32,845 bases of DNA from Candidatus Woesearchaeota archaeon (GTDB lineage: Archaea; Nanobdellota; Nanobdellia; Woesearchaeales; UBA10216), in assembly GCA_016188205.1 (NCBI GenBank), contig JACPIG010000061.1, forward strand, positions 1 through 32,845. The letters run 5' to 3'. Below are positions 10,134 through 29,176 of the stretch, one piece after another. Both the position numbers and the translations under genes were made by a program. Within the stretch, counting starts at the first letter, position 1. Every line of letters starts with the position of its first letter. Below the pieces are notes generated by a model. It did no database searches. It was not told the DNA's origin and was given only the letters and a program-made list of their open reading frames with translations.

Positions 10134-10182
10134 TCTCATACGCATCAAGAATACGTATAAAAAGGTTTTTATATCCTCATAT

Positions 10183-11667: not shown

Positions 11668-11708
11668 AAGTCTCTGTAATTCATTTACCTATATAAATGT
11701 TGTTATTT

Positions 11709-11806
11709 TTGACAAGTTATTTATAAATAATGAAATTTATTTTGACAACATATATCGCTTAAAAGCAAATAGAATTGACAAGTTATTTATAACTGAAGTT
11801 TATTTC
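11709..11806. repeat. Two direct copies of a ~32-35 bp AT-rich unit, 66 bp apart
   Basis: Copy 1 is ttgacaagttatttataaataatgaaatttatttt (11709-11743). Copy 2 is ttgacaagttatttataactgaagtttatttc (11775-11806). The first 18 nt are identical, and a partial third copy ttttgacaac occurs near 11748. Confidence 0.8.
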
Positions 11807-11886
11807 TGTTAGCAATTTCAGAAAAGGCATTCTTGCTACTGCTTAGTAACGAAACATTTATAAACGGGAGATGCAAGCATGCCCAT

Positions 11887-13551
11887 ATGTTCCTCTTAAT
11901 CCCGGGAAGGCACATAGTGAACACAAGGTTTCAGGAGGAGTACCTAAAGCGAGTTTTAGGAATGCCTGTTGGCTCACTTGAATTTCTTGACGGCAAGCCT
12001 TCTTTGCCACCCGGTGCCACCCTTGACACGATTATTTTCGCCATAACCTCAAGCAACCTTGACAATTCGCGCTTCAACCCTGTTTCATTTGTACACCGAG
12101 CTATCTCTGTTGACCGCTTTGGCAGCCAGTTTAACGGGCTTGGAGTAAGCCACAGGATTTTTGGGATTCCGGACTACGTCACCACAAACAGGTTTTCTGC
12201 GCTGACACTTAAAGAAATCCTTGAGCAGTCAGAAGGTGAGCTTGCGTTGAGCCCGGAAAATACCGTTGTAATGTGCTCAACACCTCCAGTCATAAGCATG
12301 TACAGGCAGCTTGGCTATAGCATTCTGCCCGGAGAGCTTGCATCGCTGGAACCTGAAAGATATGCGGCTATGAGGCCTATTGATGTTGTCAGGAAAATAG
12401 CAGGCGCAGGAGAAGCGTGGAGCACCAGCCCAGATGTCCTCGGCGACCTTTCTTTTTCCACTCTAAGCTTTTTCCGTGCGCATCCTGAAGTTCCAAGAAA
12501 AATGATACTCCTGTTTAACGACCCGATGCTCACTGAAGAAGGCAGCCTTACCGACACACGCGACTACGGCTCCTACGTTGTTGGAATGGGAAACATCGCA
12601 ATCGTAAGGGTGAAATATGACGACATACGGCGCGCAATAATGCCTGGCAAGATTGTTGACCACGGCTGCGCTGATGGCGCGCTCATAGAGCTTATGGCAA
12701 AGGAATTTCCAGACTCTGATTTTTACGGCGTAGATGCCTCTGCAAATATGATTGAGCGCGCAAAGCAGCGACAAACACTAAAAGCATATGGCAATGACAC
12801 GTTTGTATTTTTCAGGCAGGGAAACATCATCAGCCCGCTTTTCAAAAGCCCTGCTGCTGACACAATTACGTGCCTGTCGCTGCTGCACGAGGTATGGTCA
12901 TATGGCGCCCAGAAAAAGTCCATTGATGACTACCTTGCTTCAGTGCGAAATCAGCTTGTGACTGGAGGCAGGTTTGTCGTAAGAGACGTAGTTGGACCTG
13001 AACACGGGGAGCAAGAGGTTTACCTCTGGTGCAATCCTGCTGACGGCTCCAACGAAAATCCTTATGCGGCATTTTCAGACCAAGAGCAGCTGAAGGCGCA
13101 CCTTGACGGGCTGTCAACATATTCCCGCTTTATGAGGTTTGCTTCTGACTTTCTGGCTGAAATGAGGCAAAAAGGAAAGCGCGGGCCTGAAACAGAAATA
13201 AATTACAGAGTGGAAAGGATTGATGGCAAGGATTATTTTGTGCTCAGGCTCAAGGAAGCTGTTGAGTTCATGCTCACCAAAGACTACACAGACAACTGGA
13301 GAAGCGAGATGAACGAGGAGTTCACTTACCGCAGTTTTGGCGGGCACAAAAGAGCTCTTGAGCAGGCAGGCTTCAGGGTGATAGAAAACCCGAACGACCC
13401 GATGAGCGGCTCAAGGGCTTACACAAGCCCCTGGATTGCTGAGCACAGCTTCATGGGAAAAGCAGAGCTTTACGAAATGGGAATTGACAGAAATCTGCAC
13501 AAAATGGCTTACCCAATGACAAACATGGTACTGGTGGGTGAGAAGGCATGA
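11887..13551 (+). CDS. Fusion protein: divergent NMNAT-like nucleotidyltransferase-fold domain plus class I SAM-dependent methyltransferase
   Basis: Start at ATG 11887, about 27 nt downstream of tttataaa (11857-11864). The N-terminal LIPGRHIVNTRFQEEYL...DTIIFAITSSNLDNSRFNPVSF parallels archaeal NMNAT GRFQPFHKGH...IIIGIGSAQxSHTxxNPFTAGER, but the HxGH motif is degenerate. The MTase motif I is IVDHGCADGALIELMAKEFPDSDFYGVDASANMIERAK. Confidence 0.65.
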   Translation: MFLLIPGRHIVNTRFQEEYLKRVLGMPVGSLEFLDGKPSLPPGATLDTIIFAITSSNLDNSRFNPVSFVHRAISVDRFGSQFNGLGVSHRIFGIPDYVTTNRFSALTLKEILEQSEGELALSPENTVVMCSTPPVISMYRQLGYSILPGELASLEPERYAAMRPIDVVRKIAGAGEAWSTSPDVLGDLSFSTLSFFRAHPEVPRKMILLFNDPMLTEEGSLTDTRDYGSYVVGMGNIAIVRVKYDDIRRAIMPGKIVDHGCADGALIELMAKEFPDSDFYGVDASANMIERAKQRQTLKAYGNDTFVFFRQGNIISPLFKSPAADTITCLSLLHEVWSYGAQKKSIDDYLASVRNQLVTGGRFVVRDVVGPEHGEQEVYLWCNPADGSNENPYAAFSDQEQLKAHLDGLSTYSRFMRFASDFLAEMRQKGKRGPETEINYRVERIDGKDYFVLRLKEAVEFMLTKDYTDNWRSEMNEEFTYRSFGGHKRALEQAGFRVIENPNDPMSGSRAYTSPWIAEHSFMGKAELYEMGIDRNLHKMAYPMTNMVLVGEKA

Positions 13552-14825
13552 ATCAAGGAAAAGGCATGAAGCCAAGAACCCTGGCAGAAGCGCTCGGAAT
13601 TAAAGGGACACCTGTGATGAGCAACGAACAGATGCAGGCGTATGCCTGGGAAAGAAAGCTGGCAGACCCCGGGACACAGGGAGTGCTCCTTGAGGAACAA
13701 GTCAGTGGGCTGAGGGGAATAGTTATCCACAACGCGAAAACAACAGAGGAAGTAAGACGCGTCCTCCGGGACGAGGCGAAACTTTCCGTTGTTGAATATG
13801 CCCCGCCAAAATCATCCGAACCGCATTTCTGGGTTCCGGCGACAGGATACATACACGTGGTTAATACAAGAGGAATAACAAGACTGCTGAGAGATGAAGC
13901 ATTAGCCAGAATACTTAGTTATCTTCTCCCCAATGAGGTTGAAATTGCCATAAGCAACTATCATGGCAGCAGGCGCGAAGCCAACGACAGGTTTGAGCAT
14001 TTTGCCTATGCGCTTGTTGATGATATCTTCATGCACCTTGACAAAGCAGCAGTAACCAAAAATGGCAGGATTAACCTTCTCCTTGGCCCTTATGTGTCAA
14101 TAGATGACGCGCTTAGCACAGATGGATGCGAGATTGCTCACAGTACAGACAGTGACTACCTTAACTACAGAATTGTTCTTGCGGGCACATCAGAAGGGAA
14201 GGAAGTAGTGGTTAATTTTGACTATATCTTCGCTGACCAGGCAAAGGACGTTCTGCACAAGCTGTACAAGGGGGTTGCTGCGGAATTCAGCAGGCAGGGC
14301 ATCAGCATAAACGTGCTGCATTACGGCAAGGTAGGCGTACTGGATCCGGCAACAAATGTCGGAGACATAATAATCCCCACAGGCGCTTTTGACGAGGAAA
14401 AGCTTCAATATGCGGTCAGGAGAGGAGAGCCCATACCGCAGCAATACGCTCTAAACAACCAAATCGCATCCAATCCGGATGTGAGAGCACTATTTTATCG
14501 CGCTGTCAGCGGCAGAATAAATTCAGGGGTTACGGTCAACACAAACTCCGTCCTTGAGCAGACAGCAGAAAGGCTCCGGATTGATTTAGGCGCAGGCGGA
14601 AACTGGCTTGAAATGGAATGGGCAGTAATAGCCAGCCTGTCAACAGGCTCACACAGCACATACCCCGGGACAGGGTCAATAAACCACTTCCTGGCAGGAG
14701 TCGGCTCAGACAACCCGCTAAGAGGGCAAACACTCGGAGAAACACATTACCCCCGCGAAAGGGAAGCAGAAGTTGCGAAAGCAATGATAAGGATAATACA
14801 GCATATGCCTGAGCTGGGGCTTTGA
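13548..14825 (+). CDS. PNP/UDP-fold nucleosidase or phosphorylase-like protein (AMP-nucleosidase-like C-terminal half) with an unknown N-terminal domain
   Basis: ATGA overlap with the upstream stop (13548-13551). The C-terminal half reads HYGKVGVLDPATNVGDIIIPTGAFDEE ... GVTVNTNSVLEQ ... NWLEMEWAVIASL ... FLAGVGSDNPLRGQ. This mirrors the GHCGGL..IGDYVL, TVVTTDDRNWE, IDMESATIAA and LLCVSDKPLHGE blocks of AMP nucleosidase, recalled from memory. Confidence 0.55.
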   Translation: MNQGKGMKPRTLAEALGIKGTPVMSNEQMQAYAWERKLADPGTQGVLLEEQVSGLRGIVIHNAKTTEEVRRVLRDEAKLSVVEYAPPKSSEPHFWVPATGYIHVVNTRGITRLLRDEALARILSYLLPNEVEIAISNYHGSRREANDRFEHFAYALVDDIFMHLDKAAVTKNGRINLLLGPYVSIDDALSTDGCEIAHSTDSDYLNYRIVLAGTSEGKEVVVNFDYIFADQAKDVLHKLYKGVAAEFSRQGISINVLHYGKVGVLDPATNVGDIIIPTGAFDEEKLQYAVRRGEPIPQQYALNNQIASNPDVRALFYRAVSGRINSGVTVNTNSVLEQTAERLRIDLGAGGNWLEMEWAVIASLSTGSHSTYPGTGSINHFLAGVGSDNPLRGQTLGETHYPREREAEVAKAMIRIIQHMPELGL

Positions 14826-14831
14826 GGAAAA

Positions 14832-15812
14832 ATGGCAAAAGTCACAGTAATCTTCAAGGAAAGCACGCACAAGATTTACAGCGCTTCAGACAGCGCAGGA
14901 TTACTGGCTTATATGCAAAAAGGAAGCGCACATGTGAAAGGGATGGAAGAAGCGCGTGACGAGCACGAAAGAACGCTTGAAGAAGTTATAAGGGTTATAG
15001 ACAGGCATGGAGTCGGCTGCAATGCGATATACAGGGGTGAACTCTCCGGAATGGATGAGGAAAGAAGGAGAGAGCTCATCCAAAATGCACAGCTTCTTAT
15101 TACTGTTGGAGGCGACGGCACATTCATGGAGGCATCCCACTATATCCCTGAAGGGTCAGCAACGCCCCTTCTTGGAGTTAATTCAGACCCTGCGAGGAGC
15201 ACGGCTTTCTACTCAATCGCAAACATGCAGACATTTGAAGGCATATTAGGGCAGGCACTTGAAGGGAAACTGACAAAACTTCTTCTTCCGAGGCTGAGCA
15301 TAGAGGTCAACGGAAAAAGGATTGCTGAGCTTGTAATAAACGACGTCAGGCTGAAAAACTCAGGAGATGACCTTTTCAGATACGACCTTTCCGTTGACGG
15401 CGCCGTAAAATCAGGGCTGCGCTCAGACGGAATACTGGCATGCACTCCTTCAGGATACACTGGATGGATGGTTGACTTTCCCGGAAGCATATACCTTCCT
15501 CTCGGCTCAAAAGACATGCAGTACTACTTAATGGGAAAGCCAGTGCCGCCAGAACTCGCAAAACAATCCATTGAAATCTCCTCACTGACAAGAGAGGGAA
15601 TAATGCATGTTGATGGTGTTCACGTGCAGTACGAATTCAGCATAGGTGACGTTATAAGGATAACCCCCGGAGAGCCGCTTACATTCCTCGGGGAACTTGA
15701 AGGCAAGAGGGCAGCATATGCTGCGAGAAAATTTGAAGAGCTGCTCACAGCGATACCCGTGTTTGAGCAAAGGGCGAGAGCAAACCTGGAACTGGTCAGA
15801 GGGAGGGCTTAG
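14832..15812 (+). CDS. nadK: NAD kinase
   Basis: The GGDG motif is LLITVGGDGTFM, the NDV motif is LVINDVRL, and SDGILACTPSGYTGW corresponds to DGxxxSTPTGSTAY. A GAGG site lies upstream of the ATG. Confidence 0.88.
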   Translation: MAKVTVIFKESTHKIYSASDSAGLLAYMQKGSAHVKGMEEARDEHERTLEEVIRVIDRHGVGCNAIYRGELSGMDEERRRELIQNAQLLITVGGDGTFMEASHYIPEGSATPLLGVNSDPARSTAFYSIANMQTFEGILGQALEGKLTKLLLPRLSIEVNGKRIAELVINDVRLKNSGDDLFRYDLSVDGAVKSGLRSDGILACTPSGYTGWMVDFPGSIYLPLGSKDMQYYLMGKPVPPELAKQSIEISSLTREGIMHVDGVHVQYEFSIGDVIRITPGEPLTFLGELEGKRAAYAARKFEELLTAIPVFEQRARANLELVRGRA

Positions 15813-15818
15813 CAGACT

Positions 15819-16661
15819 TTATGATAGCCTACTGTCCGTAATTGTGCGCAGCAAAATTTCCTTAAAGCCGGGGTTTACATCAGTTATTATTGACACATTT
15901 CCATACACTGCTTTTTCAGTTATTGCGCTGTCTGCGAAGTGATGCACAACAAGCGGGTCATAAAGGTATGCGCAGTCCTGCTCAGCTTTTCCCATCCAGG
16001 ACTGAGCAGCAGCATGAATGTAAGCAGAAGCTGAGGCTGGAACTCCTCCTGATTTTATCAGCCCAAAATCCTCTCTTGTCAGGGAGCTTTTCTTGCATAC
16101 TTCTGTCGTGACAATGGTTATGGGCGCTGGCGATGCAAAGACAATGTCAACAGCCTCAGGGTCAACCTTGAAGTTGTGCGCCCTGTAGTTGATGTAAAAC
16201 GCGCCAGGCGTTATAATAGCGTTGCCCATGGCGTATATGTGGCTGACAAGGGCAGGGAGGTCAGGGTACTTTTGGAAAGCCCTTGCAATGTTAGTCATCG
16301 GGCCTATTGACGCGATGCCTACATTATTCCTGCTCGCGTATATTGCTTCAGCGATTGCCTCAACACCATCCAGCCTTATGTCAAGGCTTTCAGCAGCATC
16401 CACAAAATCCGCGCCTTCATCCCCTTCCCAGTAAAGGTGCTTCTGCTTCAACGGCTTTGACTCGCCTGCAGCAACAGGAATATCTGCGCCCAGAAGCATA
16501 ACCAGCTTTTTCGCTATGCGCGCCCTGACGTAAGCGTCTCCGTGAACTGTTGTCACCAGCTTAATGTTCATCCCCAGTTTTACCGCGTACATTAATGCTA
16601 TCGCGTCATCAACATCAGTCCCTATGTCCGTATCTATGATTATGGCTTCGTCAATGCTCAT
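15819..16661 (-). CDS. Inosine/uridine-preferring-type nucleoside hydrolase (IUNH family)
   Basis: The N-terminal fingerprint is IIIDTDIGTDVDDAIALMYA (DxDxxxDD). The gene overlaps the upstream gene by 4 nt (16658-16661). Confidence 0.88.
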   Translation of the reverse strand: MSIDEAIIIDTDIGTDVDDAIALMYAVKLGMNIKLVTTVHGDAYVRARIAKKLVMLLGADIPVAAGESKPLKQKHLYWEGDEGADFVDAAESLDIRLDGVEAIAEAIYASRNNVGIASIGPMTNIARAFQKYPDLPALVSHIYAMGNAIITPGAFYINYRAHNFKVDPEAVDIVFASPAPITIVTTEVCKKSSLTREDFGLIKSGGVPASASAYIHAAAQSWMGKAEQDCAYLYDPLVVHHFADSAITEKAVYGNVSIITDVNPGFKEILLRTITDSRLS

Positions 16662-17578
16662 TTTCCATACCTCTCAGCCACAGCAGCAAAAAGGTTAAGC
16701 GCGCTGATAACTGAATCGCGCATCATGCATATGTCGTCGCCAAGCATAAAAGCCCTGTAGCCCATCCTGAGAAGATTATCAACATCGCCTATGTCCTGGC
16801 ATGACGGCTCAAGGCTTTCCGCGAGCGAAGGGAAAATCCTTGACGCAACAATGGCATTTTGCTCCTTTGCAACTATGAGCTCGCAGGCAGCAATAACATG
16901 ATGAGGCATCTTCAGCTCAGTGTAAAGGTCGCCCCTCGCAGCCATAAGCCTTGTTTTGCCTTCCGGCTTCCATAGAGTCTTGACATAATCCATTCCCTTC
17001 ACAGACTCAATCTTCTCAACAACATTGGCAGCAGAGTCAAGAGCCCTCAAGTCAGAAATGTCCTCTGGCTTCTCAACAAATGAAAGCATGTAATTATGCG
17101 CGCCAACCTTTACAGCAGCTTCAACATACCTTTTGTCAGTGTCAGTCATGTATCCCTCTATTGACAATGAAGGGTGCGGGATGTTTATTGACTCTCCCTC
17201 ACCGACAACCCTTTTCGGCCCGTCCTGCATTATGAGCCTGCTGCCGTCTGCAGCAAGAATCACAGCACTTTCCTGCCCGTCGTGGAAGTAAGCCCTCACA
17301 TTCGGCTCAACAGTTATCCTGTGGCTTATCCCGATTTCCGTAAATGGGGGGACAGCATACCCGACAACCCTTATCTGCCTGCATTTGAGGTCTATCCACA
17401 ACTCCTTTCCAAAAGTTCCAGCCTCGTGAAAAAGCCTTTTAAGCACGTCCTCAAGCGAGTCAGAGCCCTTAACAGGCATGACTGTGTTAAGCCTTATGCC
17501 TGAAACAACCTGATGGCTTAGCACGTCCCTCAGGTAAGGCGCGTACGGAGGCATTGTGACTATTGCGGTTGCTTCCAT
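16658..17578 (-). CDS. Pyruvate-kinase-like barrel protein (A and B domains only, no C-terminal regulatory domain)
   Basis: SGIRLNTVMP compares with ARLNFSHG, and WIDLKCRQIRV with DTKGPEIR. GESINIP compares with KGVNLP, MLSFVEKPEDI with ALSFVRxAxDV, and VVEKIES with IISKIEN. LMAARGDLYTEL compares with IMVARGDLGVEI. At 306 aa it is shorter than a canonical PK by about the size of the C-terminal domain (estimate from memory). Confidence 0.6.
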   Translation of the reverse strand: MEATAIVTMPPYAPYLRDVLSHQVVSGIRLNTVMPVKGSDSLEDVLKRLFHEAGTFGKELWIDLKCRQIRVVGYAVPPFTEIGISHRITVEPNVRAYFHDGQESAVILAADGSRLIMQDGPKRVVGEGESINIPHPSLSIEGYMTDTDKRYVEAAVKVGAHNYMLSFVEKPEDISDLRALDSAANVVEKIESVKGMDYVKTLWKPEGKTRLMAARGDLYTELKMPHHVIAACELIVAKEQNAIVASRIFPSLAESLEPSCQDIGDVDNLLRMGYRAFMLGDDICMMRDSVISALNLFAAVAERYGK

Positions 17579-17581
17579 TGC

Positions 17582-18652
17582 TCACCTTCCTGCCTTCAGC
17601 TCATAAATCCTGTCAGCTGCAGACACAAGCCTTTCCAAGCCGCTTACCTGCCTTATCCATGATTCAGGAAAGACCATTCCGTTTTTCGCCCCAGCCAGAG
17701 CGCCGTAAATCGCGCCAGTGGTATCTGTGTCGCCGCCGAAATTAACAACCTCAACCAGCCCCTCTACTGGATTGTCCCAGTACTTCTGCAGCATGAACAA
17801 AGCAAAAGGGTAAGAGCTGAATACGAGGCTGCTGCTGCCCAAATTCCTGTGCGCATCAGCAGCTTCTGCATCCATGCTGGCGGCAACCCATTCAACCCTT
17901 TCCGAGAGGCTGCCCGAGCCTGAACGAGCGTTGCTTCTGCCAAGCGGCATTTCGTAACGCCTGCACACACTAGTGAGAGAACTTACAAAATCATTTCTTG
18001 GAATATCCTGAAGCAGCCCGTATATGGCATGAGCCTGAACAACTCCGCTGGCAACAGAGCGCGGATCAAGGTGCGTGATTCTCCCTGTCAATCCCGCATA
18101 CTGCAGCCCCTTTTCGCACTCACCTGTTGCATCCATATACATCCCGACAGGCGACATCTTCATTGCAGGAGCATTTCCAGGAGCGCCTACAACACCTGAT
18201 TTTTCAGGCGGAAATCCTTCCATCAATCTCCTGAAGCCCCTGATTGTCGTATAGCCAAAGCCTCCTGTTGACCTTCCATCCGGAAGAAGCCTCTGCACAT
18301 ACTCTGCCAGCTGCTTTCCAGCAATATGCCCAAGGTCAAGACCTTTACATTCAGCAATTGCCTCAGCCAAAGCCAGAGTCAGAATCGTGTCGTCTGTGTA
18401 ATCTCCAGCTTTCATTCCTGCGTCTGCGGCAAAATACTTCAGCTTTCCGAACTCGTCATGCCTGACAACTTTGCCATTGCCATCCCTCAAAACAAACGGC
18501 TCAACCGGCTCAGTTATCCTTCCCACATGCTTTTCTATCTGCTCCTTCTTCCAGCCCTCAACAGGCTTTCCAAGGATGTCACCTATGGCACAGCCTACAA
18601 GCACAGCCCTGTACCTTTCTCTCATGTCCGGCATATTCGGCATATTCGGCAT
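17582..18652 (-). CDS. ADP-ribosylglycohydrolase (ARH/DraG family)
   Basis: The N-terminal motif is RYRAVLVGCAIGDILGKPVEG, followed by YTDDTILT and the C-terminal metal motif GGDTDTTGAIYGALAGA. First ATG is at 18652, with three more in-frame ATGs in a 9-nt tandem repeat (18625-18652). Confidence 0.9.
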   Translation of the reverse strand: MPNMPNMPDMRERYRAVLVGCAIGDILGKPVEGWKKEQIEKHVGRITEPVEPFVLRDGNGKVVRHDEFGKLKYFAADAGMKAGDYTDDTILTLALAEAIAECKGLDLGHIAGKQLAEYVQRLLPDGRSTGGFGYTTIRGFRRLMEGFPPEKSGVVGAPGNAPAMKMSPVGMYMDATGECEKGLQYAGLTGRITHLDPRSVASGVVQAHAIYGLLQDIPRNDFVSSLTSVCRRYEMPLGRSNARSGSGSLSERVEWVAASMDAEAADAHRNLGSSSLVFSSYPFALFMLQKYWDNPVEGLVEVVNFGGDTDTTGAIYGALAGAKNGMVFPESWIRQVSGLERLVSAADRIYELKAGR

Positions 18653-18843
18653 ATTCAATACCTCTGCATTCCATATGCAAATTTACAGCAGGCTAAACTA
18701 CAGAGGGCTAAGCCAGGATTTCCTCAAGGGGGCTTTCACCTGCCAAGCCCTCCTTGGGTTCCTGAGGCATAAGCTCCTCGTAGCTGCAAATTATTTTCCG
18801 GCTCATCCCACACCTCATTCCTTTCCCTGCACGCTTTCATCCC

Positions 18844-19839: not shown

Positions 19840-19906
19840 TTTGTTTACCTCCAGAGCTATCGCTAGCTCTAAGCATGTTCCTTCATTTTTGTCTCTCATT
19901 GCACGC

Positions 19907-21653: not shown

Positions 21654-22811
21654 TCACACCTCCGCAGGATGAAGCCTCTCGCTTTCAACACATTCAGGGC
21701 TCCTGTAATCCTTTCCTGAAAGCTGCGCGATTGTCTCCAGCCCGAACTCGCGCCTGAACCTGTCAGCAAGCCCATGGCTTTCCATGTAATCAGCAACAGC
21801 AGCAGGCACAAGCGCTTTCCAGTTGCCAGCCTTAGCCATCTCCATCCTCACAGTTGTCGCGTTCAGTTTTATCCATTTCTCAGGCGGGATAAGCTCGTCA
21901 GCAGGATTAATTATCACATATGTGCCCTCAAGCAATTCCTTCACATAGCCGTTCGCAGTCACAAAAGCGTCAAGGGAGCCGTACTGCAAAGCAACCTCCC
22001 CAGCCCACTTCCTTCCATCCCTGAATTCAGGAATGTGCCCGTAATCAGGAATCTCAACAAAGCTGTAGTTTGAGAACCTCGGGGAAAGGTATGCGCCAAT
22101 CATCTCCCTTGTTTCTTCTGCAGTAAAAGGGTTCCTTGCATTGTACTTGTTGCAGCTGCCTATTCCTATAGTGACGTGCTCTGCCTGTTCACACACAGCC
22201 TCAAGCATACCTGCTGCGCCATTATGCAAAGGTTTGAACCTGCCTATGACTCCAACCCTTCCCAGCTTTTTCACATGAGAATCTTCGGCTGAATCTTTGG
22301 CAGCGCCCATTACTCCGGATGCGGAATATCCCTTTTCCAGCAGATACTTTTCCAGAGTTTTTGCATGGTCAAACGCAAGCCCGCCTTTTGCAATGAGCGC
22401 CTGTATTTCTGGAATCGTATAAAGCCTTGCAGAAGCCGCATCATCACCAGCCCATATTTTGCCTGCGCCTTTTGCAATGTATGTCACGCTGATTATGTGC
22501 GCCCTCGGGTCGCGTGCAGGGTCTGAATGGACGCAGAAAGGCATTTCAGGCTCATTTACAATAATCTCAAGCCCGGTTTCCTCTTTCGCCTCCTTCGCAG
22601 CGTTCTCCTCCAATGTAAGCCCTGACTCGGCAAACCCTCCGGGCAGAGCAATCCCATAAGGATAGTTTTTCCTTGTAATAAGGACAATCCCATCATCAGA
22701 GCCGTCTGTGTACTCTATAATGATGTCAGTTGTCAGCAGGGGATTAGTGTCTCTCCTGTGGATGGTGTTCTGTGCCTTTTGTGCCTGTTGTGCCGTCTGT
22801 GTTGTGCTCAT
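21654..22811 (-). CDS. nadM: Bifunctional-type fusion: N-terminal Nudix hydrolase plus C-terminal archaeal-type NMN/NaMN adenylyltransferase
   Basis: The Nudix box is GGFAESGLTLEENAAKEAKEETGLEI. The NMNAT part reads VIGRFKPLHNGAAGMLE...VTIGIGSCNKYNARNPFTAEETREMI...NATTVRMEMAKAGNWKALVP, closely paralleling the M. jannaschii-type NMNAT as I recall it. ATGA overlap with the nadE stop (22808-22811). Confidence 0.85.
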   Translation of the reverse strand: MSTTQTAQQAQKAQNTIHRRDTNPLLTTDIIIEYTDGSDDGIVLITRKNYPYGIALPGGFAESGLTLEENAAKEAKEETGLEIIVNEPEMPFCVHSDPARDPRAHIISVTYIAKGAGKIWAGDDAASARLYTIPEIQALIAKGGLAFDHAKTLEKYLLEKGYSASGVMGAAKDSAEDSHVKKLGRVGVIGRFKPLHNGAAGMLEAVCEQAEHVTIGIGSCNKYNARNPFTAEETREMIGAYLSPRFSNYSFVEIPDYGHIPEFRDGRKWAGEVALQYGSLDAFVTANGYVKELLEGTYVIINPADELIPPEKWIKLNATTVRMEMAKAGNWKALVPAAVADYMESHGLADRFRREFGLETIAQLSGKDYRSPECVESERLHPAEV

Positions 22812-24865
22812 GCTGCCATCACCCCTGCAACAGCCACAGCATGAGCACCTGCAACTGCACCAGTTCCATCTTTTTGCGCACCATCCGCCCAGTCTTTCGG
22901 CACATACCTGACCATAGCAAGCACTTCTGCCTTCAGCCTTTCATAAGCAGGCATTCTTCCATTAGGCAGAATGCTTTCCCTTATGTCGTAGCCATAAGCA
23001 GACTTGCTGACGACGATTATCGGCGGGCTTTGAACGCGCTTGAACACGTTTCCTTCTGCCTTTGCAATAAACCACTCAAGGTCGCTGACAAACTCTTTTG
23101 GGTCATCCATGCCCCAGCGCCTTATGAGCTCAGTTGATATTCCGAGATTCTCCTCAAGAGCGCCCTCAATGTACCAGCGCATTATCTGCTCAGGCGATTT
23201 CCTCATGTAGTCAGTCATGGCATTGACAAACGCGCAGTGGTAGCCGAACTTTATAGGACTCACCTGACCTTCCTTCAGCTCAGGACCAGACTTTATCTGG
23301 TCATCCCTGAACCTGTACAGCCTGTCAGGAATAAGCTCTTCCGGAAGCACTTCCCTTCCGAAAATCTCTCTGTTAAGGTAACGCGCAAGCTCAAAAACCT
23401 CTGCCTTTGTCAAATCGCCAATTGGCGATAATGCCCCGCCAACATCCCCATAGAGCGTTGCGTAGCCAAGCATTATCTCATCCTTGTTGCCGTTGTTCGT
23501 GAACAAGGCGCCATACATGCCTGCAAGGTTTGAAAGAATTGCAGTTCCCCGGATTTTTGCAGCAACGTTCTCAACGTAGCTGCTCTCGGCAAGCTTCTTC
23601 CCGCTGCCGTCAAGGTCAAAGCGGTCAATAAGAGCGATGTTTGCATTTGTGAGCTCTTCTATCGGGATTTCCACGTAGCCGATACCAAGGCTTTCAGCAA
23701 TTCCTGCAGCAGCCTGCATTGTCCTTGCAGAATTAACATGTGTAGGCATATTGATGGCAAGCACCTTCTCAGGGCCAACAGCCACTGTCAGAAGAGCTGC
23801 AACAACTGCGCTGTCTATGCCTCCGCTCAGGCCTATCACGTATCTTGGCTGCTCCTGCAAGCCCATGAAATCCTTCATGTGCCTTATGCCTTCTACGATT
23901 GCCTCGTACTTCTGCGCAATCATCGGCTTCTCAAGCCTCACAACAGGGCTCCTAAAAAATTCTTCCTCATCAACAATCATGAGCTCCTGCTCATAAGCGG
24001 CTTTGCTGAGCCTGACAGGCAAGCCATCACTGTTGTAAACGGTTGAGCCGCCATCAAACGTTATGAAGTTCTTGCCAGTATTCTGAACCCCTGTGCAGTT
24101 GACATAAAGGAACGGAACAAAGCTGTTTCCTGACTCTCCCTTCAGAAACCTTATCCTCCTGTCCCTTGCAGCGTTCTTGCCGTAAGTCCAGGGAGAAGCG
24201 GAAATGTTGACAACGAGCTGCGCGCCGTTTCCTATCAGAATCCTTGTGGCGTTCTGCGCCTCGCCGTTCCTCCTGTAATCAGCACACCACAAATCCTCGC
24301 ACACCTCAAAGCCAACAGGAACCTTTTTTCCTTTTACGTCTATTACGAAAGGCTGCACGAGGTCTTCAAGCGCTGCGCCAAAATCCTTTGCAACGTCCTC
24401 TGTGGAAAAGAAATACCTCTCATCGTCAAAGAACCTGTAGTTCGGAAGCAAGGTCTTTGGCTGCACGCCTTCAGGCAGCAGATTTGTTTCCTTCAGGCGC
24501 TGTGCAGGCATGCCATTCTGGAAAACGTAAACAGCATTGTACTTCCTGCTCCTCCCATCCTTGTTCGGATGAGGCTTTTCGTCGCCAACCCTTTCATTGA
24601 TTTCCCGGTCAACAAAGATATTGCCATAAGCAACGGCAATACCATCGCTTGCCTTTCTCAGAGCCTCATTGAACTCCATCAGGCCTTCGCAGTAGTCGTC
24701 GCTGAGCCACTTGTCACCCAGAAGGTAGCCGCCAACACTCATCTCAGGGAAAGCAATAAGGTCAACGCCCTCAAGCTTTGCCCTTTCAATCATGCCAAGC
24801 ATTGCCTCAAGGTTTTTCCCTGGAGCTCCGGGCTTCACTTCCATCTGTGCAAGCGCAACCTTCAT
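22808..24865 (-). CDS. nadE: Glutamine-dependent NAD+ synthetase (CN-hydrolase glutaminase domain plus PP-loop synthetase domain)
   Basis: The nitrilase-type N-terminus is MKVALAQMEVKPG...LIAFPEMSVGGY...FEVCEDLW. The PP-loop is VIGLSGGIDSAVVAAL. ATG at 24865 is preceded by AAGGTGG. Confidence 0.93.
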   Translation of the reverse strand: MKVALAQMEVKPGAPGKNLEAMLGMIERAKLEGVDLIAFPEMSVGGYLLGDKWLSDDYCEGLMEFNEALRKASDGIAVAYGNIFVDREINERVGDEKPHPNKDGRSRKYNAVYVFQNGMPAQRLKETNLLPEGVQPKTLLPNYRFFDDERYFFSTEDVAKDFGAALEDLVQPFVIDVKGKKVPVGFEVCEDLWCADYRRNGEAQNATRILIGNGAQLVVNISASPWTYGKNAARDRRIRFLKGESGNSFVPFLYVNCTGVQNTGKNFITFDGGSTVYNSDGLPVRLSKAAYEQELMIVDEEEFFRSPVVRLEKPMIAQKYEAIVEGIRHMKDFMGLQEQPRYVIGLSGGIDSAVVAALLTVAVGPEKVLAINMPTHVNSARTMQAAAGIAESLGIGYVEIPIEELTNANIALIDRFDLDGSGKKLAESSYVENVAAKIRGTAILSNLAGMYGALFTNNGNKDEIMLGYATLYGDVGGALSPIGDLTKAEVFELARYLNREIFGREVLPEELIPDRLYRFRDDQIKSGPELKEGQVSPIKFGYHCAFVNAMTDYMRKSPEQIMRWYIEGALEENLGISTELIRRWGMDDPKEFVSDLEWFIAKAEGNVFKRVQSPPIIVVSKSAYGYDIRESILPNGRMPAYERLKAEVLAMVRYVPKDWADGAQKDGTGAVAGAHAVAVAGVMAA

Positions 24866-24893
24866 TTTGTCCACCTTCAGCCTTTAGCAGGCT

Positions 24894-25559
24894 TTAGCGC
24901 AGGTACTGCTCCAGCGCTGTTGAATCAATCATCCTGACGCCTCTTGCCACCCACGCATCTGTCGGGTCAGGGATTCCGGGCAGCCCCTTGATGGCATCCC
25001 TGACAACATAAACCTCAATCGGCCTGCCACCAATTTTCCTGTCAAGCAGCCCACCGACTGCGAAGTCAACGCAAACATTAGTTGCGACACCGTAAACAAA
25101 CACCCTCTCAGGCTTCAGAATCTCAAGCACCCTTTCAACGTGAGGCGAGCCGTGCTCCCTGTTGAAAACATCAACGTGGTCCTTGGTCAGCACAATATTG
25201 CGGTGCGACAGCACCATTTTTTCATCCAGCGTTCTGTCACGCCAGTCAAGAACATAAGCATCCCTTGGCTTTGTTGCAGGCACAAACTCTGCTCCAGATG
25301 TTCCGTACATGCAGTGATCAGGAAATGTTTTTACAAAATCAGGATTATCAGAAAGTTCCCCTGAGCCTTTCTGGTGAGAATCTGCCTGGTTTATTACAGG
25401 GACATCATAATCCTCTGCTGTTTTTGTAACCCTTTCAAGCGCAGGTTCAATCTCCTCTGCTCCAGGCACGTACAGCCTGCCGTCCTTCCGCATAAAGTCG
25501 CCAGCTGTATCCACGTTCCAAAACAATGTCCCTGCCAGCTTTTCTTCCAGTCCAGCCAT
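24894..25559 (-). CDS. pncA: Nicotinamidase / pyrazinamidase (isochorismatase family)
   Basis: LFWNVDTAGDFM is the Asp motif and VFVYGVATNVCVDFAVGGL carries the catalytic Cys. ATG at 25559 is preceded by GGTGAGGTGG. Confidence 0.87.
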   Translation of the reverse strand: MAGLEEKLAGTLFWNVDTAGDFMRKDGRLYVPGAEEIEPALERVTKTAEDYDVPVINQADSHQKGSGELSDNPDFVKTFPDHCMYGTSGAEFVPATKPRDAYVLDWRDRTLDEKMVLSHRNIVLTKDHVDVFNREHGSPHVERVLEILKPERVFVYGVATNVCVDFAVGGLLDRKIGGRPIEVYVVRDAIKGLPGIPDPTDAWVARGVRMIDSTALEQYLR

Positions 25560-25577
25560 TTTTACCACCTCACCAGT

Positions 25578-25721
25578 TCAATCCATAAGCTCAAACTCGT
25601 ATGCCTCATGTTCTCCGCGCATTGAGCCAATGCCTGTGCCAAATGCAATGAGCACCGCATACTTGCCGCTCTTTCCACGCACAGTTCCAAGCTGCTCCAT
25701 TCCCTGCGTTACCTTCACCAT
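25578..25721 (-). CDS. Unannotated 47-aa ORF between pncB and pncA
   Basis: ATG at 25721 is preceded by GGAGGGATGCAGG, and TGA is at 25580-25578, 18 nt before the pncA ATG. Translation is MVKVTQGMEQLGTVRGKSGKYAVLIAFGTGIGSMRGEHEAYEFELMD. It is below the ORF-track length cutoff and sits directly behind one copy of the repeated promoter/operator box. Confidence 0.4.
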   Translation of the reverse strand: MVKVTQGMEQLGTVRGKSGKYAVLIAFGTGIGSMRGEHEAYEFELMD

Positions 25722-25760
25722 CCTGCATCCCTCCGCAACACTTCCACTAATTTTGTTGCT

Positions 25761-25790
25761 GTAATTTTTACACTTACTAAGCCATTAAAA
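25761..25790 (-). promoter_or_regulatory. Promoter/operator box copy A (internal promoter overlapping the last pncB codons)
   Basis: The minus strand reads TTTTAAtggcttAGTAAGTGTAAAAATTAC. The same TATA-like element and spacing to the AGTGTAAAAA..AC motif are seen in copies B and C. Confidence 0.5.
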
Positions 25791-27216
25791 CAGGCTCTGC
25801 ACATGCGTGCATTGCATACTTTTCCTTAAGCACTTGAACAAGCCCCTGAAGCCCTTCTGACAGCTCAACCCTGTAGCCGTCTGCAGGAGCCCTCACAGCC
25901 CTGATATCATCAGGAAGCATTCCAACGCAGGCAAGCGCGTAGCTTCTTGTTTCTTTGAGAGTCTTTCTTTCAGCAACCCTTCTTCCATCCCTCACAACCT
26001 GCTCAAGAAGCGGAACTCCTTCAACATGCTCGCCTTCAAGCGCTATTACGTCATGCAGGCATCTTCCTTCACCATCCACAACCCTGTAAACCTGCTTTTT
26101 CCCAGGCAAAGTCTGCTTGCCCTCTGAAAGCTTTATTTTAGCCCCGTCTTCGTCCTCAACAAGCTTGTAAACCCCTGATATTGCCGCAACAGGCTTTGCA
26201 GTAATCATCTCTGTGCCAACACCATAAGCATCAATCCTCGCCCCCCTCCTTCGGAGCTCCTCTATCTTGTACTCATTGAGATCGTTGCTCGCAACAATCC
26301 TTACATATCCCATGCCTTCATCGTCAAACATCTGCCTGACTTCTATAGACAGGCCTGCAAGGTCGCCTGAGTCAAGCCTTACAGCATACAGCCTTTTTCC
26401 CTCTGCCTCAAGCTCTTTTGCAACCGTGACTGCGTTCCTTGCGCCCTGAATAGTGTCGTAAGTGTCAATCAGCAGCGTTGACTTGTCAGGGAAAGTCCTC
26501 GCATAAGCCCTGAAAGCGTCAATCTCTTCCTGGAAGCTCATCACAAAGCTGTGCGCATGAGTTCCTGCAACCGGTATTCCGTATTCCATCCCTGCCTTCA
26601 CGTTGCTTGTTGCTACAGCCCCTCCAATGTATGCCGCCCTTGCACCTTCCATTGCAGCATCCTCGCCCTGCGCCCTGCGCAAGCCGAAATCCACAATAGC
26701 GGCGCCATTCGCGGCATTAACAACCCTGCTTGCCTTTGTTGCAATCATGGTCTGGAAGTTTATTATGTTCAGCAACGCTGTTTCAAGGAACTGAACCTCA
26801 GCCCTTTTCCCGGTAACCCTCAATACAGGCTCGTCTGGAAAGAAAGGCGCTCCTTCCCTTAGTGCATATATGTCACCTGTGAACCTCATATCTTTCAGAA
26901 ACTCAAGGAACGCTTCGCTGAAAGTCCCCTGCTGCCTCAGGTAGCTTATGTCTTCTGGCGTGAATTCTATACCTGTGGCATAGTCAATTGCATCCTCTAT
27001 TCCGTTCGCTATGTAGTATCCCCAATTATCAGGCAGATTCCTTATGAACAGCTCAAATGTTGCAGTGTCGTTCTTTCCATTCTCAAAGTATGCGGCAGCC
27101 ATGGTAAGCTGGTAGAGGTCTGTCAGCATGGTCTTGCCTTGCATGCTTTGAATGCCATGCATGCCCTGCTCATCCTGCGCCAGTCTTTCCAAATCAGCCA
27201 CCATACCAATCACCAT
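25777..27216 (-). CDS. pncB: Nicotinate phosphoribosyltransferase
   Basis: MLTDLYQLTMAAAYF, IVDFGLRRAQG and PVAGTHAHSFVMSF are NAPRTase-family hallmarks. Start trimmed from 27324 to the ATG at 27216, because 27217-27345 is a promoter block duplicated upstream of 29148. Confidence 0.9.
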   Translation of the reverse strand: MVIGMVADLERLAQDEQGMHGIQSMQGKTMLTDLYQLTMAAAYFENGKNDTATFELFIRNLPDNWGYYIANGIEDAIDYATGIEFTPEDISYLRQQGTFSEAFLEFLKDMRFTGDIYALREGAPFFPDEPVLRVTGKRAEVQFLETALLNIINFQTMIATKASRVVNAANGAAIVDFGLRRAQGEDAAMEGARAAYIGGAVATSNVKAGMEYGIPVAGTHAHSFVMSFQEEIDAFRAYARTFPDKSTLLIDTYDTIQGARNAVTVAKELEAEGKRLYAVRLDSGDLAGLSIEVRQMFDDEGMGYVRIVASNDLNEYKIEELRRRGARIDAYGVGTEMITAKPVAAISGVYKLVEDEDGAKIKLSEGKQTLPGKKQVYRVVDGEGRCLHDVIALEGEHVEGVPLLEQVVRDGRRVAERKTLKETRSYALACVGMLPDDIRAVRAPADGYRVELSEGLQGLVQVLKEKYAMHACAEPVLMA

Positions 27217-27222
27217 ATAGTT

Positions 27223-27345
27223 ATTGTGTTTTTTACACTTACTTTGAGCCTTAAAAACGCTCAACGCCACAATTAGTGTATAGTATACACTAACTACTAT
27301 ATAAATGTTTTGGAAATGTGGCATATATGGTATATACTGAAAGAA
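27223..27345 (-). promoter_or_regulatory. Conserved intergenic module 1: tandem TATA boxes each followed by a TAGTGTA-type operator
   Basis: attgtgttttttacact (27223-27239) is 17/17 identical to 29177-29193. ttaaaaa at 27251-27257 is TATA-like on the minus strand. A perfect 19-bp palindrome tagtgtata-g-tatacacta lies at 27274-27292. A second TATA tatataaa is at 27298-27305 and ggtatatact at 27329-27338. Confidence 0.6.
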
Positions 27346-28275: not shown

Positions 28276-28278
28276 TTT

Positions 28279-29148: not shown

Positions 29149-29176
29149 CCCCTCCGTTTTCCTGCTTTTTATTAAT

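What the first reader, a model, noticed from the sequence alone, without database searches (positions are those of the whole stretch)
11887..15812. NMNAT-like-methyltransferase fusion, AMP-nucleosidase-fold protein and NAD kinase in one plus-strand operon
The 554-aa product of 11887-13551 begins with a domain that tracks the archaeal NMNAT fold block by block. Examples are GR....., IIFAITSSNLDNSRFNPVSF versus IIGIGSAQxSHTxxNPFTAGER, and VVMCSTPPVISMYRQLGYSI versus [20 protein letters not shown]. The (H/T)xGH motif is degenerate, TRFQ. This domain is fused to a class I SAM methyltransferase (DHGCADG). Its stop overlaps (ATGA) the start of a 425-aa protein whose C-terminal half resembles the AMP nucleosidase / PNP-UDP catalytic fold (LEMEWAVIA, GVGSDNPLRGQ) behind a novel N-terminal half. 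A canonical NAD kinase follows after 6 nt. I do not recognise an NMNAT-like-MTase architecture as described. It could bind a pyridine or adenine nucleotide and methylate it, or methylate nicotinate/nicotinamide.
Basis: partly seen in the sequence, partly recalled or inferred. Interest (0 to 1): 0.65.

Follow-up and report, generated by a model that had tools for sequence, protein, structure and literature searches.

The report
NMNAT-like methyltransferase fusion in NAD island
The gene is real and belongs to a widespread, unstudied enzyme family that joins a relative of the NAD-making enzyme NMNAT to a methyltransferase; it sits among NAD-recycling genes and next to NAD kinase in several distant microbial groups, so it is probably an unrecognised step or control point in NAD(P) metabolism.

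Summary
All three plus-strand genes exist as described, with the ATGA overlap and the 6-nt gap. A predicted structure of ORF1 residues 1-250 matches only archaeal NMNAT and bacterial NadM among solved structures (Foldseek E 2e-7 to 4e-4, TM 0.69-0.76). Residues ~250-554 are an intact class I SAM methyltransferase with a large cap. The fusion is not an artefact: over 700 full-length homologues (39-69% identity) occur in Verrucomicrobiota, Chloroflexota, Patescibacteria, Planctomycetota and DPANN-like archaea. The N-domain matches no Pfam model and is never found without the methyltransferase. HxGH is replaced by an invariant GRHxxNTxFQ.

NAD genes lie within 8 kb in 48 of 81 loci. In 17 Verrucomicrobial loci a bona fide NAD kinase sits directly upstream, often overlapping, and 9 loci carry NrtR operators (mostly tandem pairs) upstream.

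ORF2 is a rare PNP/UDP-fold nucleosidase-like protein with a novel N-terminal half. It follows ORF1 in 9 of 9 contexts. AMP-nucleosidase kinship is not shown. ORF3 belongs to the NAD kinase family but is divergent, not canonical.

The substrate is unknown. My best guess is SAM-dependent methylation of a pyridine nucleotide docked on the NMNAT-like domain. The main rival is a non-canonical NaMN adenylyltransferase. This is a new variant of known kinds and worth testing.

The parts
11887..13551 (+). ORF1, 554 aa: NMNAT-like domain fused to a class I SAM methyltransferase (whole gene)
   Evidence: ORF. 724 homologues, mostly ~550 aa. Full-length model has pLDDT 91.9 and pTM 0.81.
11887..12519 (+). 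N-terminal NadM/archaeal-NMNAT-like Rossmann (HUP) domain, aa 1-211. Motifs: PGRHIVNTRFQ (aa 6-16), IIFAITSSNLDNSRFNPVSFVHR (49-71), IPDY (94-97), CSTP (130-133), LPGE (147-150), RPIDVVRK...GEAW (163-178).
   Evidence: Foldseek top 17 hits are all NMNAT/NadM. hhalign against NadM-type domains. Invariant residues. Motif coordinates.
12517..12636 (+). Conserved linker, probably the methyltransferase N-terminal lid (aa 211-250). G219, T222, R225, Y227 and Y230 are invariant.
   Evidence: pLDDT is 72-78 in the full model and below 50 when modelled without the methyltransferase.
12637..13548 (+). Class I SAM methyltransferase core (motif I IVDHGCADG aa 256-264, GVD 281-283, GNI 312-314, LHEVWSY 333-339, RDVVGPE 366-372) with a ~160-aa cap inserted before the last strand (aa ~383-545; KDYTDNWRSEMNEEF at 465-479).
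   Evidence: Pfam. Foldseek methyltransferase hits. DSSP string. Invariant residues.
13548..14825 (+). ORF2, 425 aa: novel N-terminal domain (aa 1-~175) plus NP-I (PNP_UDP_1) nucleosidase/phosphorylase-fold domain. Motifs: LHYGKVG 257-263, LEMEW 354-358, GVGSD 384-388. Its start overlaps the ORF1 stop (ATGA).
   Evidence: The family has only 7 proteins in 5.8 billion. It lies directly downstream of ORF1 in 9 of 9 contexts.
14832..15812 (+). ORF3, 326 aa: divergent NAD kinase family protein (GGDGT aa 93-97, TPSGYTGW aa 205-212).
   Evidence: Pfam 28.1 bits vs cut-off 25.5. NCBIfam at most 43 bits vs cut-offs above 200. PDB NAD kinases at E ~1e-6.
11709..11805 (+). Upstream direct repeats: TTGACAAGTTATTTATAA at 11709-11726 and 11775-11792, each followed by TGAA(A/G)TTTATTT. 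Possible promoter or regulator sites for the ORF1-3 operon.
   Evidence: No NrtR operator is present here.
15819..18658 (-). Convergent salvage genes: IU-nucleoside hydrolase (15819-16661), pyruvate-kinase-barrel-only protein (16658-17578), ADP-ribosylglycohydrolase (17582-18658).
   Evidence: Pfam. Conserved next to ORF1-3 in related archaeal loci.
21654..27324 (-). Core NAD salvage genes: Nudix+NadM-type NMNAT (21654-22811), glutamine-dependent NadE (22808-24874), PncA-like isochorismatase (24894-25568), PncB (25777-27324).
   Evidence: Pfam.
27346..29148 (-). Second NADK-fold paralogue (27346-28275) and SPFH protein (28279-29148).
   Evidence: The pair is conserved in Verrucomicrobial NrtR islands.
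29367..30041 (-). NrtR (Nudix-related NAD regulator).
   Evidence: Pfam NrtR_WHD plus NUDIX.
25756..29294 (.). Predicted NrtR operators (TAGTGT-N7-ACACTA): 27273-27293 (perfect core), 27221-27241, 29175-29195, 29274-29294, 25756-25776.
   Evidence: Motif derived from related loci. PWM scan of the window.

Best explanation
ORF1 is a member of a conserved, uncharacterised family of two-domain NAD(P)-pathway enzymes.

Domain 1 (aa 1-211) descends from archaeal/NadM-type NMN adenylyltransferase. It keeps the loops that hold the mononucleotide and its phosphates: G7-R8, T54-S55-x-N57, N64-P65, R71, the I-P-(D/H) turn, S131-T132 and E150. The catalytic HxGH is replaced by an invariant TxFQ, and the SxTxxR motif has lost its Ser and Thr. 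Domain 2 (aa ~212-554) is an intact SAM methyltransferase. Its cap is lined with invariant acidic and aromatic residues.

Proposed mechanism (inferred): domain 1 docks a pyridine nucleotide (NaMN, NMN, NaAD or NAD(P)). Domain 2 then transfers a methyl group from SAM to that nucleotide, or to the pyridine base derived from it. The enzyme works in step with NAD kinase, its most constant neighbour.

In the archaeal version seen here, the translationally coupled ORF2 (an NP-I nucleosidase fold with a novel N-domain) then cleaves a glycosidic bond. That bond is either in the methylated product or in the by-product S-adenosylhomocysteine. ORF3 is the lineage's divergent NAD kinase partner.

Shown: the folds, the family, the obligate fusion, the NAD gene context and the NrtR operators. 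Inferred: the ligand, the methyl acceptor and the order of steps.
For: Fold: the N-domain model matches only NMNAT/NadM below E 1e-3. Profile-profile P is 8.6e-5, or 2e-6 with relaxed settings.

Methyltransferase: Pfam models pass their cut-offs. SAM motifs are invariant across 58 sequences: D258, G260, D/E283, N313, H334-E335.

Obligate fusion: a profile of the N-domain alone against 1.84 billion representatives finds 263 clusters. All are fusion-length proteins or fragments, and every odd-length hit that matched any Pfam model still carried the methyltransferase.

Context: NAD genes lie within 8 kb in 48 of 81 loci. By lineage this is 25/25 Verrucomicrobiota-like, 10/10 DPANN-like and 10/14 Patescibacteria, with different gene orders. 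A bona fide NadK lies directly upstream and co-directional in 17 loci, with a 4-nt overlap in at least 6. An NADK-like gene lies within 1.5 kb downstream in 8 more. NrtR operators, mostly as tandem pairs, lie upstream of ORF1 or of nadK-ORF1 in 9 loci. PnuC-NadR and NAPRTase are neighbours in Patescibacteria and Verrucomicrobiota.

The cap carries invariant E460, Y467, N470, W471, E474, E477 and W516. This fits a cationic or aromatic ligand such as a pyridinium.

ORF2 follows ORF1 in 9 of 9 contexts. It keeps the EME ribose motif and the S-D acid motif of NP-I enzymes.
Against: No ligand or product is demonstrated, and no methylated NAD-type metabolite is known in prokaryotes.

The methyltransferase has no close characterised relative. 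The best PDB sequence hits are an uncharacterised M. mazei enzyme, Hen1 and plantazolicin methyltransferases, all over motif I only.

The family shows essentially no NAD context in 22 Chloroflexota loci (one has a Nudix-family neighbour) and none in 3 Planctomycetota loci.

In this window there is no NrtR operator upstream of ORF1.

Strict conservation of R8, T13, Q16 and R71 at the former catalytic site would also fit retained nucleotidyl transfer.
Confidence: 0.4

Rival explanations
1. Domain 1 is still a working, non-canonical NaMN/NMN adenylyltransferase. It would supply the NadD step, which is the one step not encoded in the pncA-pncB-nadE-nadK islands. T13 would stand in for the first His, as Thr does in human NMNATs (GxFxPxTxxH). 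Q16 would stand in for the second, as Asn does in the TIGN variant of HIGH in TrpRS. Both analogies come from my own knowledge. The methyltransferase would be a second or regulatory activity.
For: Verrucomicrobial islands encode PncA, PncB, NadE and NadK next to ORF1 but show no NadD in the held flanks. In Patescibacteria, pncB/NAPRTase is directly adjacent to ORF1. R8 and R71, which I assign from memory to the ATP-phosphate arginines R11 and R47 of M. thermautotrophicus NMNAT, are invariant. A basic residue occupies the SxTxxR arginine position in 46 of 58 sequences. The window's own NadM-type NMNAT also lacks the second His (HNGA).
Against: Bona fide NMNATs (Nudix-NadM, NadR) sit in the same islands in archaea, Patescibacteria and some Verrucomicrobiota. 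An H16A/H19A double mutant of a NadM-type NMNAT served as that study's inactivated control and did not raise NAD+ (PMC13036487). All three ATP-contacting motifs are altered (HxGH, SGN, SxTxxR). This model does not explain why the domain never occurs without the methyltransferase. Presence or absence of nadD elsewhere in these genomes could not be checked.
Confidence: 0.25
2. Domain 1 is only a sensor of NAD(P) or a precursor. It allosterically gates a methyltransferase whose target is not a nucleotide. One candidate target is free nicotinate or nicotinamide, giving an overflow or detoxification valve like animal NNMT or plant nicotinate N-methyltransferase. Another is a protein such as the co-translated NAD kinase.
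For: Loss of the catalytic histidines alongside retention of ligand-binding loops. The Preiss-Handler context; plants pair this pathway with nicotinate methylation as detoxification (PMC6776627). Translational coupling with NadK; human NADK is regulated by arginine methylation (bioRxiv 10.1101/2024.10.11.617635).
Against: The replaced motif residues are invariant rather than relaxed, which is unusual for a pure sensor. There is no similarity to NNMT, plant NANMT or protein arginine methyltransferases beyond the generic fold. An excretion valve co-repressed with the salvage genes by NrtR is not an obvious design.
Confidence: 0.2
3. The ORF1 fusion is an artefact (assembly chimera or frameshift joining two genes), or the NAD context is coincidental.
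For: Relative to its sister contig, the window is non-syntenic from 10134 to 13095, and the right-hand breakpoint lies inside ORF1. That part of the contig could therefore be a strain chimera.
Against: The same 550-aa architecture occurs in over 700 proteins from independent assemblies, including an isolate genome. The breakpoint joins two alleles of the same fusion gene, in frame. The NAD context recurs with different gene orders in three distant lineages and comes with regulator operators.
Confidence: 0.02

Closest known systems
Archaeal NMN adenylyltransferase / bacterial NadM (PDB 1F9A, 1EJ2, 1HYB, 4YP5-7, 2QJO, 2QJT, 2R5W)
   Same: The alpha/beta fold and strand order match (TM 0.69-0.76 on the target). 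Shared blocks are I-x-S-x-N...NP-(F/I)...R, I-P-D/H, S-(T/G)-x-P and G-E-x-W. The G-R at the start of the first loop is kept.
   Different: HxGH is replaced by an invariant TxFQ, and F-x-P by H-L-L. The SxTxxR Ser and Thr are lost. There is a ~25-residue insertion after helix A. The domain matches no Pfam CTP_transf_like model, is not retrieved by or with canonical NMNATs in a 1.84-billion-protein profile search, and is always fused to a methyltransferase.
Small-molecule class I SAM methyltransferases (Methyltransf_11/12/25/31; e.g. PDB 3MGG, Rv2258c, RebM, CouO) and the Hen1 methyltransferase domain
   Same: Rossmann-type methyltransferase core with motif I, an acidic residue after strand 2, and LHE after strand 4. 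Pfam cut-offs are passed.
   Different: Motif I is G-C-A-D-G with an invariant Asp. A ~160-aa cap with its own invariant NWxSE(M/L)NEE motif has no detectable relative in the PDB. No characterised orthologue exists, so substrate class cannot be transferred.
Bifunctional NAD enzymes (NadM-Nudix, NadR, archaeal NADP phosphatase/NAD kinase)
   Same: An NMNAT-type domain is fused to a second enzyme of the same pathway. They belong to NrtR-type regulons.
   Different: The partner here is a methyltransferase. This activity has no known role in prokaryotic NAD metabolism.
NP-I nucleosidases and phosphorylases (MTA/SAH nucleosidase MtnN, AMP nucleosidase Amn, uridine/purine nucleoside phosphorylases), compared with ORF2
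   Same: PNP_UDP_1 domain with G-x-x-G after strand 5, the (L/V)-E-M-E ribose motif and the S-D acid motif. The two-domain layout is analogous to Amn.
   Different: The N-terminal 175 residues match nothing (no AMNp_N). His-Tyr replaces the phosphate-binding Arg of phosphorylases. No PDB hit reaches significance. The family is very rare and is tied to ORF1.
NAD kinase (NadK/PpnK), compared with ORF3
   Same: GGDG motif, an N-(D/E) motif and a TP(T/S)G motif. PDB NAD kinases match at E ~1e-6.
   Different: Scores are about 10-fold below NCBIfam equivalog cut-offs. TPSGYTGW replaces TPTGSTAY. There is an N-terminal ~50-aa extension. The Verrucomicrobial partners of ORF1 homologues are, by contrast, typical NadK.

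Membership tests
NMN/NaMN adenylyltransferase, archaeal/NadM type | Nucleotidyltransferase (HUP) alpha/beta fold closest to NMNAT | tested here: met
   Foldseek top 17 PDB hits are all NMNAT/NadM, E 2e-7 to 4e-4.
NMN/NaMN adenylyltransferase, archaeal/NadM type | (H/T)xGH ATP-binding motif in the first loop | tested here: not met
   The sequence is T13-R-F15-Q16. T, F and Q are invariant in 57/57 sequences. Gly and the second His are absent.
NMN/NaMN adenylyltransferase, archaeal/NadM type | SxTxxR (ISSTxxR-type) second ATP motif | tested here: not met
   It aligns to P-I-D-V-V-R/K. Only a basic residue is kept, in 46 of 58 sequences.
NMN/NaMN adenylyltransferase, archaeal/NadM type | Match to the Pfam CTP_transf_like or NCBIfam NMNAT models | tested here: not met
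   No hit in any of 30 members, even at E up to 10.
NMN/NaMN adenylyltransferase, archaeal/NadM type | Adenylyl transfer to NMN or NaMN | not testable with these tools
   Needs an enzyme assay.
Class I SAM-dependent methyltransferase | Pfam model above its gathering score | tested here: met
   Methyltransf_31 49.2 vs 27 bits. Methyltransf_12, _25, _11 and _23 also pass.
Class I SAM-dependent methyltransferase | SAM-binding motifs: motif I glycines, an acidic residue after strand 2, and D/N after strand 3 | tested here: met
   D258, G260 and G264 (52/58); D/E283 in 58/58; N313 in 57/58.
Class I SAM-dependent methyltransferase | Methyl transfer and identity of the acceptor | not testable with these tools
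   No characterised close relative exists.
NP-I (PNP_UDP_1) phosphorylase/nucleosidase superfamily (ORF2) | Pfam PNP_UDP_1 above its gathering score, with ribose (EME) and acid (SD) motifs | tested here: met
   31.8 vs 25.1 bits; 10 of 11 family members match. LEMEW at 354-358 and GSD at 386-388; M356, E357, S387 and D388 are invariant.
AMP nucleosidase (Amn) (ORF2) | AMNp_N regulatory domain and closest similarity to Amn | tested here: not met
   No AMNp_N hit at E up to 1 in 11 members. No Amn among PDB hits.
NAD kinase (ORF3) | Pfam NAD_kinase above its gathering score and the GGDG motif | tested here: met
   28.1 vs 25.5 bits. GGDGT at aa 93-97. PDB NAD kinases at E ~1e-6.
NAD kinase (ORF3) | Equivalog-level match (canonical NadK) including the C-terminal domain | tested here: not met
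   NAD_kinase_C scores 15.7 vs 23.7 bits. The best NCBIfam score is 43 bits against a cut-off of 316.
NrtR regulon | NrtR operator upstream of the gene or operon | tested here: inconclusive
   Met for homologues: exact-core sites, mostly tandem pairs, lie upstream of ORF1 or nadK-ORF1 in 9 Verrucomicrobial loci. Not met in this window: the best score upstream of ORF1 is -1.3, against 17-26 for sites at pncB, pncA and the SPFH operon.

The most novel reading that the evidence does not exclude
The family performs chemistry new to NAD biology, in one of two ways. It may make a previously unknown SAM-methylated pyridine nucleotide, such as a methylated NaMN, NAD or NADP derivative, whose level is set together with NAD kinase and under NrtR. 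Alternatively it may be a third, HxGH-less class of NaMN adenylyltransferase hard-wired to a methyltransferase. In the archaeal islands a dedicated new nucleosidase (ORF2) would process the product.
Probability: 0.35. Interest if true: 0.8.

Novelty: new variant of a known kind. Interest (0 to 1): 0.6.

Why it matters
NAD(P) biosynthesis and salvage in prokaryotes is regarded as essentially mapped. No methyltransferase belongs to it, and no NMNAT-fold protein lacking HxGH has an assigned role. This family is conserved at 40-50% identity between archaea and four or more bacterial phyla. It is co-translated with NAD kinase and sits behind NrtR operators. It is therefore a strong candidate for a missing enzymatic or regulatory step. 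It matters most in host-dependent Patescibacteria and DPANN archaea, which live on salvaged cofactors. A cultured carrier, Chthoniobacter flavus Ellin428, makes it directly testable.

Tried and rejected
Sequence-only assignment of the N-domain failed. Pfam, NCBIfam and PDB phmmer/hmmsearch gave nothing significant; only structure prediction and profile-profile comparison resolved it.

Foldseek with the full-length model returned only methyltransferases. The domain had to be modelled alone.

Phage or defence origin is rejected. There is no full-length match in 50,697 phage records, 72,556 plasmids or 2.9 million viral contigs. BFVD has no two-domain analogue. PADLOC gives only generic domain hits. 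A Bacillus plasmid methyltransferase that aligns over the core and cap sits among hypothetical genes and was uninformative.

The gene downstream of the Isosphaeraceae homologue is unrelated to ORF2.

Odd-length N-domain hits were checked for alternative fusions. Five of the eight carry the methyltransferase; the other three matched no Pfam model and looked like fragments.

Rfam found no riboswitch in the window.

Six literature searches found no description of the family. 'NMNAT-C' of cyanobacteria is an ordinary HxGH NadM-type enzyme.

Full report
**1. What is in the sequence**

The three plus-strand ORFs are exactly as described. ORF1 spans 11887-13551. The longest frame starts at a TTG at 11833, but all homologues begin at the Met of MFLLIPGRH. 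ORF2 spans 13548-14825 and ORF3 spans 14832-15812. I read GGC-ATG-A at 13546-13551, which gives the ATGA overlap, and a 6-nt spacer before ORF3.

The window comes from an archaeon. It carries a Cdc6/Orc1 gene at 2192-3268 and TrmB-type regulators. The organism is probably DPANN-like, because the nearest loci are labelled Nanoarchaeota, 'archaeon' or Methanosarcinales MAGs.

The minus strand from 15.8 to 30 kb is one large NAD-salvage island. It encodes a nucleoside hydrolase, a pyruvate-kinase-barrel protein, an ADP-ribosylglycohydrolase, a Ser/Thr kinase, Nudix+NMNAT, NadE, PncA, PncB, a second NADK-like gene paired with SPFH, and NrtR.

**2. ORF1 domains**

Pfam and NCBIfam see only a class I methyltransferase at aa ~250-380. 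A full-length AlphaFold model built on 58 homologues is confident (pLDDT 91.9, pTM 0.81). Its PDB matches are all methyltransferases.

Modelled alone, aa 1-250 reaches pLDDT 85.7. All 17 PDB matches below E 1e-3 are M. thermautotrophicus or M. jannaschii NMNAT, or bacterial NadM, with E from 2e-7 to 4e-4 and target TM of 0.69-0.76 for the archaeal enzymes. The next folds (photolyase N-domain, ATP-sulfurylase-like, PPAT) start at E 4e-3.

Sequence evidence agrees:
- A family profile ranks 1F9A third of 177,635 PDB sequences, on the block ITSANQxNSRYNPIPFHVR / IGSAQKSHTLENPFTAGER. The E of 1.1 is not significant alone.
- hhalign against five NadM-type domains from this and related islands gives P 8.6e-5.
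That alignment also pairs IPDY with IPDY, CSTPPV with TANGYV, and RK..GEAW with RM..GNW.

**3. What differs from NMNAT**

Across 58 diverse homologues G7, R8, H9, T13, F15, Q16 and Y19 are invariant (57 of 57 residues). So are S55, R62, R71, P95, E150 and P164. TxFQ is thus a selected signature and not decay.

- The first position (Thr) also occurs in active eukaryotic NMNATs (my knowledge).
- The Gly and the second His are gone.
- The Ser and Thr of SxTxxR are gone, and the Arg position is basic in only 46 of 58 sequences.
- A published NadM-type NMNAT with H16A/H19A served as that study's inactivated control and did not raise NAD+ (PMC13036487).

No Pfam model touches the domain in 30 members, even at E up to 10.

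**4. The methyltransferase**

The SAM motifs are intact and invariant: D258, G260, D/E283, N313 and H334-E335. From the DSSP string, a ~160-residue insertion lies before the final strand (my inference). It carries the invariant motif KDYTDNWxSE(M/L)NEEF plus W516.

A profile of core plus cap finds only 3MGG (uncharacterised), Hen1 methyltransferase domains and plantazolicin methyltransferases, all over motif I. The acceptor therefore cannot be inferred by homology.

**5. The family**

I found 724 hits at 90% clustering. The top 120 are 532-579 aa long with 91-100% coverage and 45-69% identity. They carry only generic names.

A genome scan returned 80 loci. They come from Chloroflexota, Verrucomicrobiota (including the isolate Chthoniobacter flavus Ellin428), Patescibacteria, Planctomycetota, Sericytochromatia, Acidobacteriota, Armatimonadota and DPANN-like archaea.

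The N-domain profile alone, run against 1.84 billion representatives, finds just 263 clusters. All are fusion-length proteins or fragments, and canonical NMNATs are not retrieved. Of eight unusual-length hits, five still carry the methyltransferase and the other three matched no Pfam model. The fusion is obligate and is not an artefact. The family is absent from phage, plasmid and viral-contig collections.

**6. Context**

I searched six-frame ORFs of all loci with the window's proteins and with extra NAD queries. At least one NAD gene lies within 8 kb in 48 of 81 loci:

| Lineage | Loci with an NAD gene |
|---|---|
| Verrucomicrobiota-like | 25/25 |
| DPANN-like | 10/10 |
| Patescibacteria | 10/14 |
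| Chloroflexota | 1/22 |
| Planctomycetota | 0/3 |

The most constant partner is NAD kinase. In 17 Verrucomicrobial loci a typical NadK (Pfam 104 and 59 bits) lies immediately upstream and co-directional, with a 4-nt overlap in at least six. In 8 further loci an NADK-like gene lies within 1.5 kb downstream. Other neighbours are NrtR, NadE, PncB/NAPRTase, PncA, ADP-ribosylglycohydrolase, PnuC-NadR and the SPFH+NADK-paralogue pair.

I derived the operator TAGTGT-N7-ACACTA de novo. There are 74 exact-core sites in 1.17 Mb. These sites, as tandem pairs 27 bp apart in all but one locus, lie upstream of ORF1 (L049, L050, L053, L077) or of nadK-ORF1 (L054, L056, L060, L067, L071).

In this window, strong sites precede pncB, pncA and the SPFH operon, but none precedes ORF1. 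Instead the ORF1 upstream region holds two perfect 18-nt direct repeats.

**7. ORF2**

PNP_UDP_1 passes its cut-off in ORF2 and matches 10 of 11 family members. The conserved LHYGKVG, LEMEW and GVGSD motifs correspond to the strand-5 glycine motif, the ribose-binding EME and the Ser-Asp acid of NP-I enzymes (the assignment rests on my knowledge of MtnN and DeoD). The Arg that binds phosphate in phosphorylases is His-Tyr here, which hints at a hydrolase.

The N-terminal ~175 residues match nothing. Nothing links ORF2 to AMP nucleosidase specifically. The family has only 7 members in 5.8 billion proteins. In 9 of 9 contexts it directly follows ORF1 with overlapping stop and start, down to 27% identity.

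It is therefore a dedicated partner. Two roles are plausible:
- cleaving the ORF1 product, or
- removing S-adenosylhomocysteine, as MtnN does for other methyltransferases.

**8. ORF3**

ORF3 is an NAD kinase family member. It has GGDGT and TPSGYTGW, and PDB NAD kinases match at E ~1e-6. It is divergent: its Pfam score only just passes, its C-terminal domain score is below the cut-off, and its NCBIfam scores are about a tenth of the cut-offs. A second NADK paralogue lies at 27346-28275.

**9. Mechanism**

The evidence shows an NMNAT-derived nucleotide-binding module welded to an active-looking methyltransferase. The fusion is embedded in, and in Verrucomicrobiota co-regulated with, the Preiss-Handler, NadE and NadK genes.

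My preferred reading (0.4) is methylation of a pyridine nucleotide, or of its base, presented by domain 1 and coordinated with NAD kinase. The main rival (0.25) is that domain 1 is a non-canonical NaMN adenylyltransferase filling the NadD step missing from these islands. A sensor-gated methyltransferase acting on free nicotinate or nicotinamide, or on NadK itself, is third (0.2). The tools available here cannot separate these three. The assays listed under next steps can.

**10. Side observation on the allele**

Compared with a sister contig (L001), neighbouring proteins are 83-93% identical but ORF1 is only 56% identical. DNA synteny at 88-89% breaks between 10134 and 13095. That segment holds an inserted low-GC AAA_14 ATPase gene and the first ~1.2 kb of ORF1.

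The window's ORF1 is thus a mosaic of two alleles of the same fusion gene, or a strain-chimeric assembly. Its clade also departs from the family consensus at several methyltransferase positions (E259H, N330L, T332L and others).

**11. Verdict**

This is an undescribed family and a new variant of known kinds, with an unusually strong genomic case for a role in NAD(P) metabolism.

Noticed in passing
window 10134-13095 (vs L001 4759-6093): Synteny with the sister contig is 88-89% nt identity on both sides but breaks here. The segment holds a 35% GC AAA_14/DUF4143 ATPase gene (10183-11667) and the first ~403 codons of ORF1, which are ~50% aa identical versus ~90% for the last ~150. This is allelic replacement by recombination or a strain-chimeric assembly.
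   Followed up: partly
window 11709-11726 and 11775-11792 (plus 11741-11753): Two perfect 18-nt direct repeats, TTGACAAGTTATTTATAA, lie 66 nt apart upstream of ORF1. Each is followed by TGAA(A/G)TTTATTT, and there is a third partial copy. They could be duplicated promoter/TATA elements or a regulator site. No NrtR operator is present here.
   Followed up: no
window 27346-28275 (-) and 28279-29148 (-): A second, very divergent NAD-kinase-fold protein (GDPG instead of GGDG; nearest PDB hit is mitochondrial NADK2 at E 2.6e-6) is paired with an SPFH/Band-7 protein behind NrtR operators. The same pair recurs in 11-16 Verrucomicrobial NrtR islands. Function unknown.
   Followed up: partly
window 21654-22271 (-), and L001, L005, L018, L075 homologues: The island's own NadM-type NMNAT domain reads GRFKPLH-N-G-A/S. 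It too lacks the second histidine of HxGH, in all five sequences examined.
   Followed up: no
window 16658-17578, 18844-19929, 19907-20686, 20695-21657 (all -): A pyruvate-kinase barrel-only protein, two proteins with no family match and a Ser/Thr protein kinase are conserved members of the archaeal NAD island (L001, L005, L018, L087). Their roles in NAD metabolism are unexplained.
   Followed up: no
window 29367-30041 (-) with sites at 27273, 27221, 29175, 29274, 25756: An archaeon carries the bacterial-type regulator NrtR, with operators matching the motif TAGTGT-N7-ACACTA shared by Verrucomicrobiota and Patescibacteria. It also carries a bacterial-type GpsA at 7399-8565. The whole island may have been acquired horizontally.
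   Followed up: partly
L087 231-659: In the closest relative's contig, a small SLOG/LOG-like protein (weak Pfam LDcluster4 hit) sits directly upstream of the ORF1 homologue. It is another nucleotide-processing fold in the same operon.
   Followed up: no
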